Source of the DNA: Acidimicrobiales bacterium
Lineage (GTDB): Bacteria; Actinomycetota; Acidimicrobiia; Acidimicrobiales; CADCSY01
Direction of reading: 5' to 3'
Assembly: GCA_035553895.1 (NCBI GenBank)
Contig: DATMJI010000211.1
Location: 1 to 44,938, forward strand
Length of the DNA: 44,938 nucleotides
The stretch itself is not shown here. Continued below: a report on this DNA, generated by a model with database tools.

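What the first reader, a model, noticed from the sequence alone, without database searches (positions are those of the whole stretch)
6317..44779. About 38-kb glycan-assembly island with eight sulfotransferase genes of three classes: candidate heavily sulfated exopolysaccharide system
Seen in sequence: eight ORFs carry PAPS-type P-loop/5'-PSB motifs. They are at 13363-14250, 19915-20790, 25542-26375, 26381-27232, 27235-28083, 30774-31667, 31664-32623 and 32641-33609. They are interleaved with 5 GT4 and 1 GT2 genes, a PglC-type initiating transferase, wzm/wzt, a Wzy-like protein, a Wzz/BY-kinase, a deacetylase, a GNAT, a methyltransferase and an ATP-grasp/HAD pair. None of the sulfotransferases has a signal peptide, so sulfation would be cytoplasmic. 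Established knowledge: sulfated bacterial glycans are uncommon; known cases include rhizobial NodH/LpsS, mycobacterial Stf enzymes and the cyanobacterial sulfated EPS. To my knowledge, loci with this many sulfotransferases are not a described feature of actinobacterial-type genomes. Inference: the product is a multiply and regiospecifically sulfated polymer.
Basis: partly seen in the sequence, partly recalled or inferred. Interest (0 to 1): 0.85.

Follow-up and report, generated by a model that had tools for sequence, protein, structure and literature searches.

The report, continued
Noticed in passing
window 35616-36332 (+): g33 is a 238-aa protein with a Tat-like signal and about 8 tandem PGGGTTTTT(R/Q) repeats (a 30-bp DNA repeat, 7.3 copies). 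A C-terminal LARTG motif is followed by a hydrophobic stretch, an Arg-rich patch and an unusually long acidic tail. It looks like a mucin-like anchored protein and a possible O-glycosylation substrate. It has no counterpart in any related locus.
   Followed up: partly
window 42122-44779 (+): The Wzz/BY-kinase carries two tandem P-loop kinase domains that are 41% identical to each other. The first has a degenerate Walker A (SGDGRTT, with Lys replaced by Arg) and so may be a pseudokinase. The second is canonical (GAGEGKTT). A YYKSY tyrosine cluster and a Lys/Ala-rich tail follow.
   Followed up: partly
window 15476-17265 (+); L004, L005, L092, L093, L094: This α/β-hydrolase-fold pair has unusual catalytic positions. 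hyd1 has an invariant GxCxG (Cys nucleophile, as in the lipase-box variant of PHA synthases). hyd2 has an invariant Arg where the nucleophile should be. The two are fused in L093. The window and L092 have Arg in place of the His of the conserved HG(F/L) motif in hyd1.
   Followed up: partly
window 1405-2832 (+); L006, L020, L024, L073: A Na+/H+-exchanger-family transporter is translationally coupled to the halogenases. The same arrangement recurs beside halogenase and ProDH genes in Chloroflexia, Verrucomicrobiae and Acidobacteria. It may have a role in halide or ion supply for halogenation, which is unexplained.
   Followed up: partly
window 5592-6077 (-) and 19302-19892 (-): g05 and g18 are weakly paralogous small secreted proteins (E 9e-6). 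Both have '...VANDG' after the signal peptide and a C-terminal H..AC..L motif. Neither has a Pfam hit. g05 has a 66% identical orthologue in L092.
   Followed up: no
window 20878-24006 (+), especially 23100-24006: g20 is a large secreted protein with DUF7948, SBBP and two Calx-β domains. It contains an internal DNA repeat (about 328 bp, 83% identical, offset 447 bp). The only disagreement between the window and the independent ENA contig lies at this repeat, around 23.1-23.2 kb.
   Followed up: no
L093 20408-21146 and 18404-20335; L096 18731-21146: Related loci carry a vanadium-chloroperoxidase-like protein (DUF6851 with VCPO_2nd) and FG-GAP/ASPIC proteins a few genes from the ProDH cassette. 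This is a second, flavin-independent route to halogenation that may substitute for the flavin halogenases.
   Followed up: no
L020 1-19333 (Verrucomicrobiae MAG, contig CAWCST010000003.1): A complete co-directional EPS operon ends in an exosortase (EpsH). It contains the transporter, 2 halogenases, PCP, A and ProDH cassette together with a sulfotransferase, a Wzx flippase and UDP-glucose dehydrogenase. It would be a compact and probably more tractable model of the same chemistry.
   Followed up: partly
window 33634-35589 (+); L008, L012, L095, L096: G8/CEMIP-β-helix proteins, from the family of the animal hyaluronan depolymerases CEMIP and TMEM2, recur beside the ProDH cassette, often in two copies. 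This hints that the polymer is glycosaminoglycan-like, or that these proteins bind or trim it.
   Followed up: partly
window 18115-19290 (+) and 24011-24703 (+): Wzt has a C-terminal extension of about 140 aa with no Pfam hit, and a methyltransferase lies nearby. In O-antigen ABC systems such extensions bind a chain-terminating cap. Whether a methyl or sulfate cap controls chain length here was not examined.
   Followed up: no
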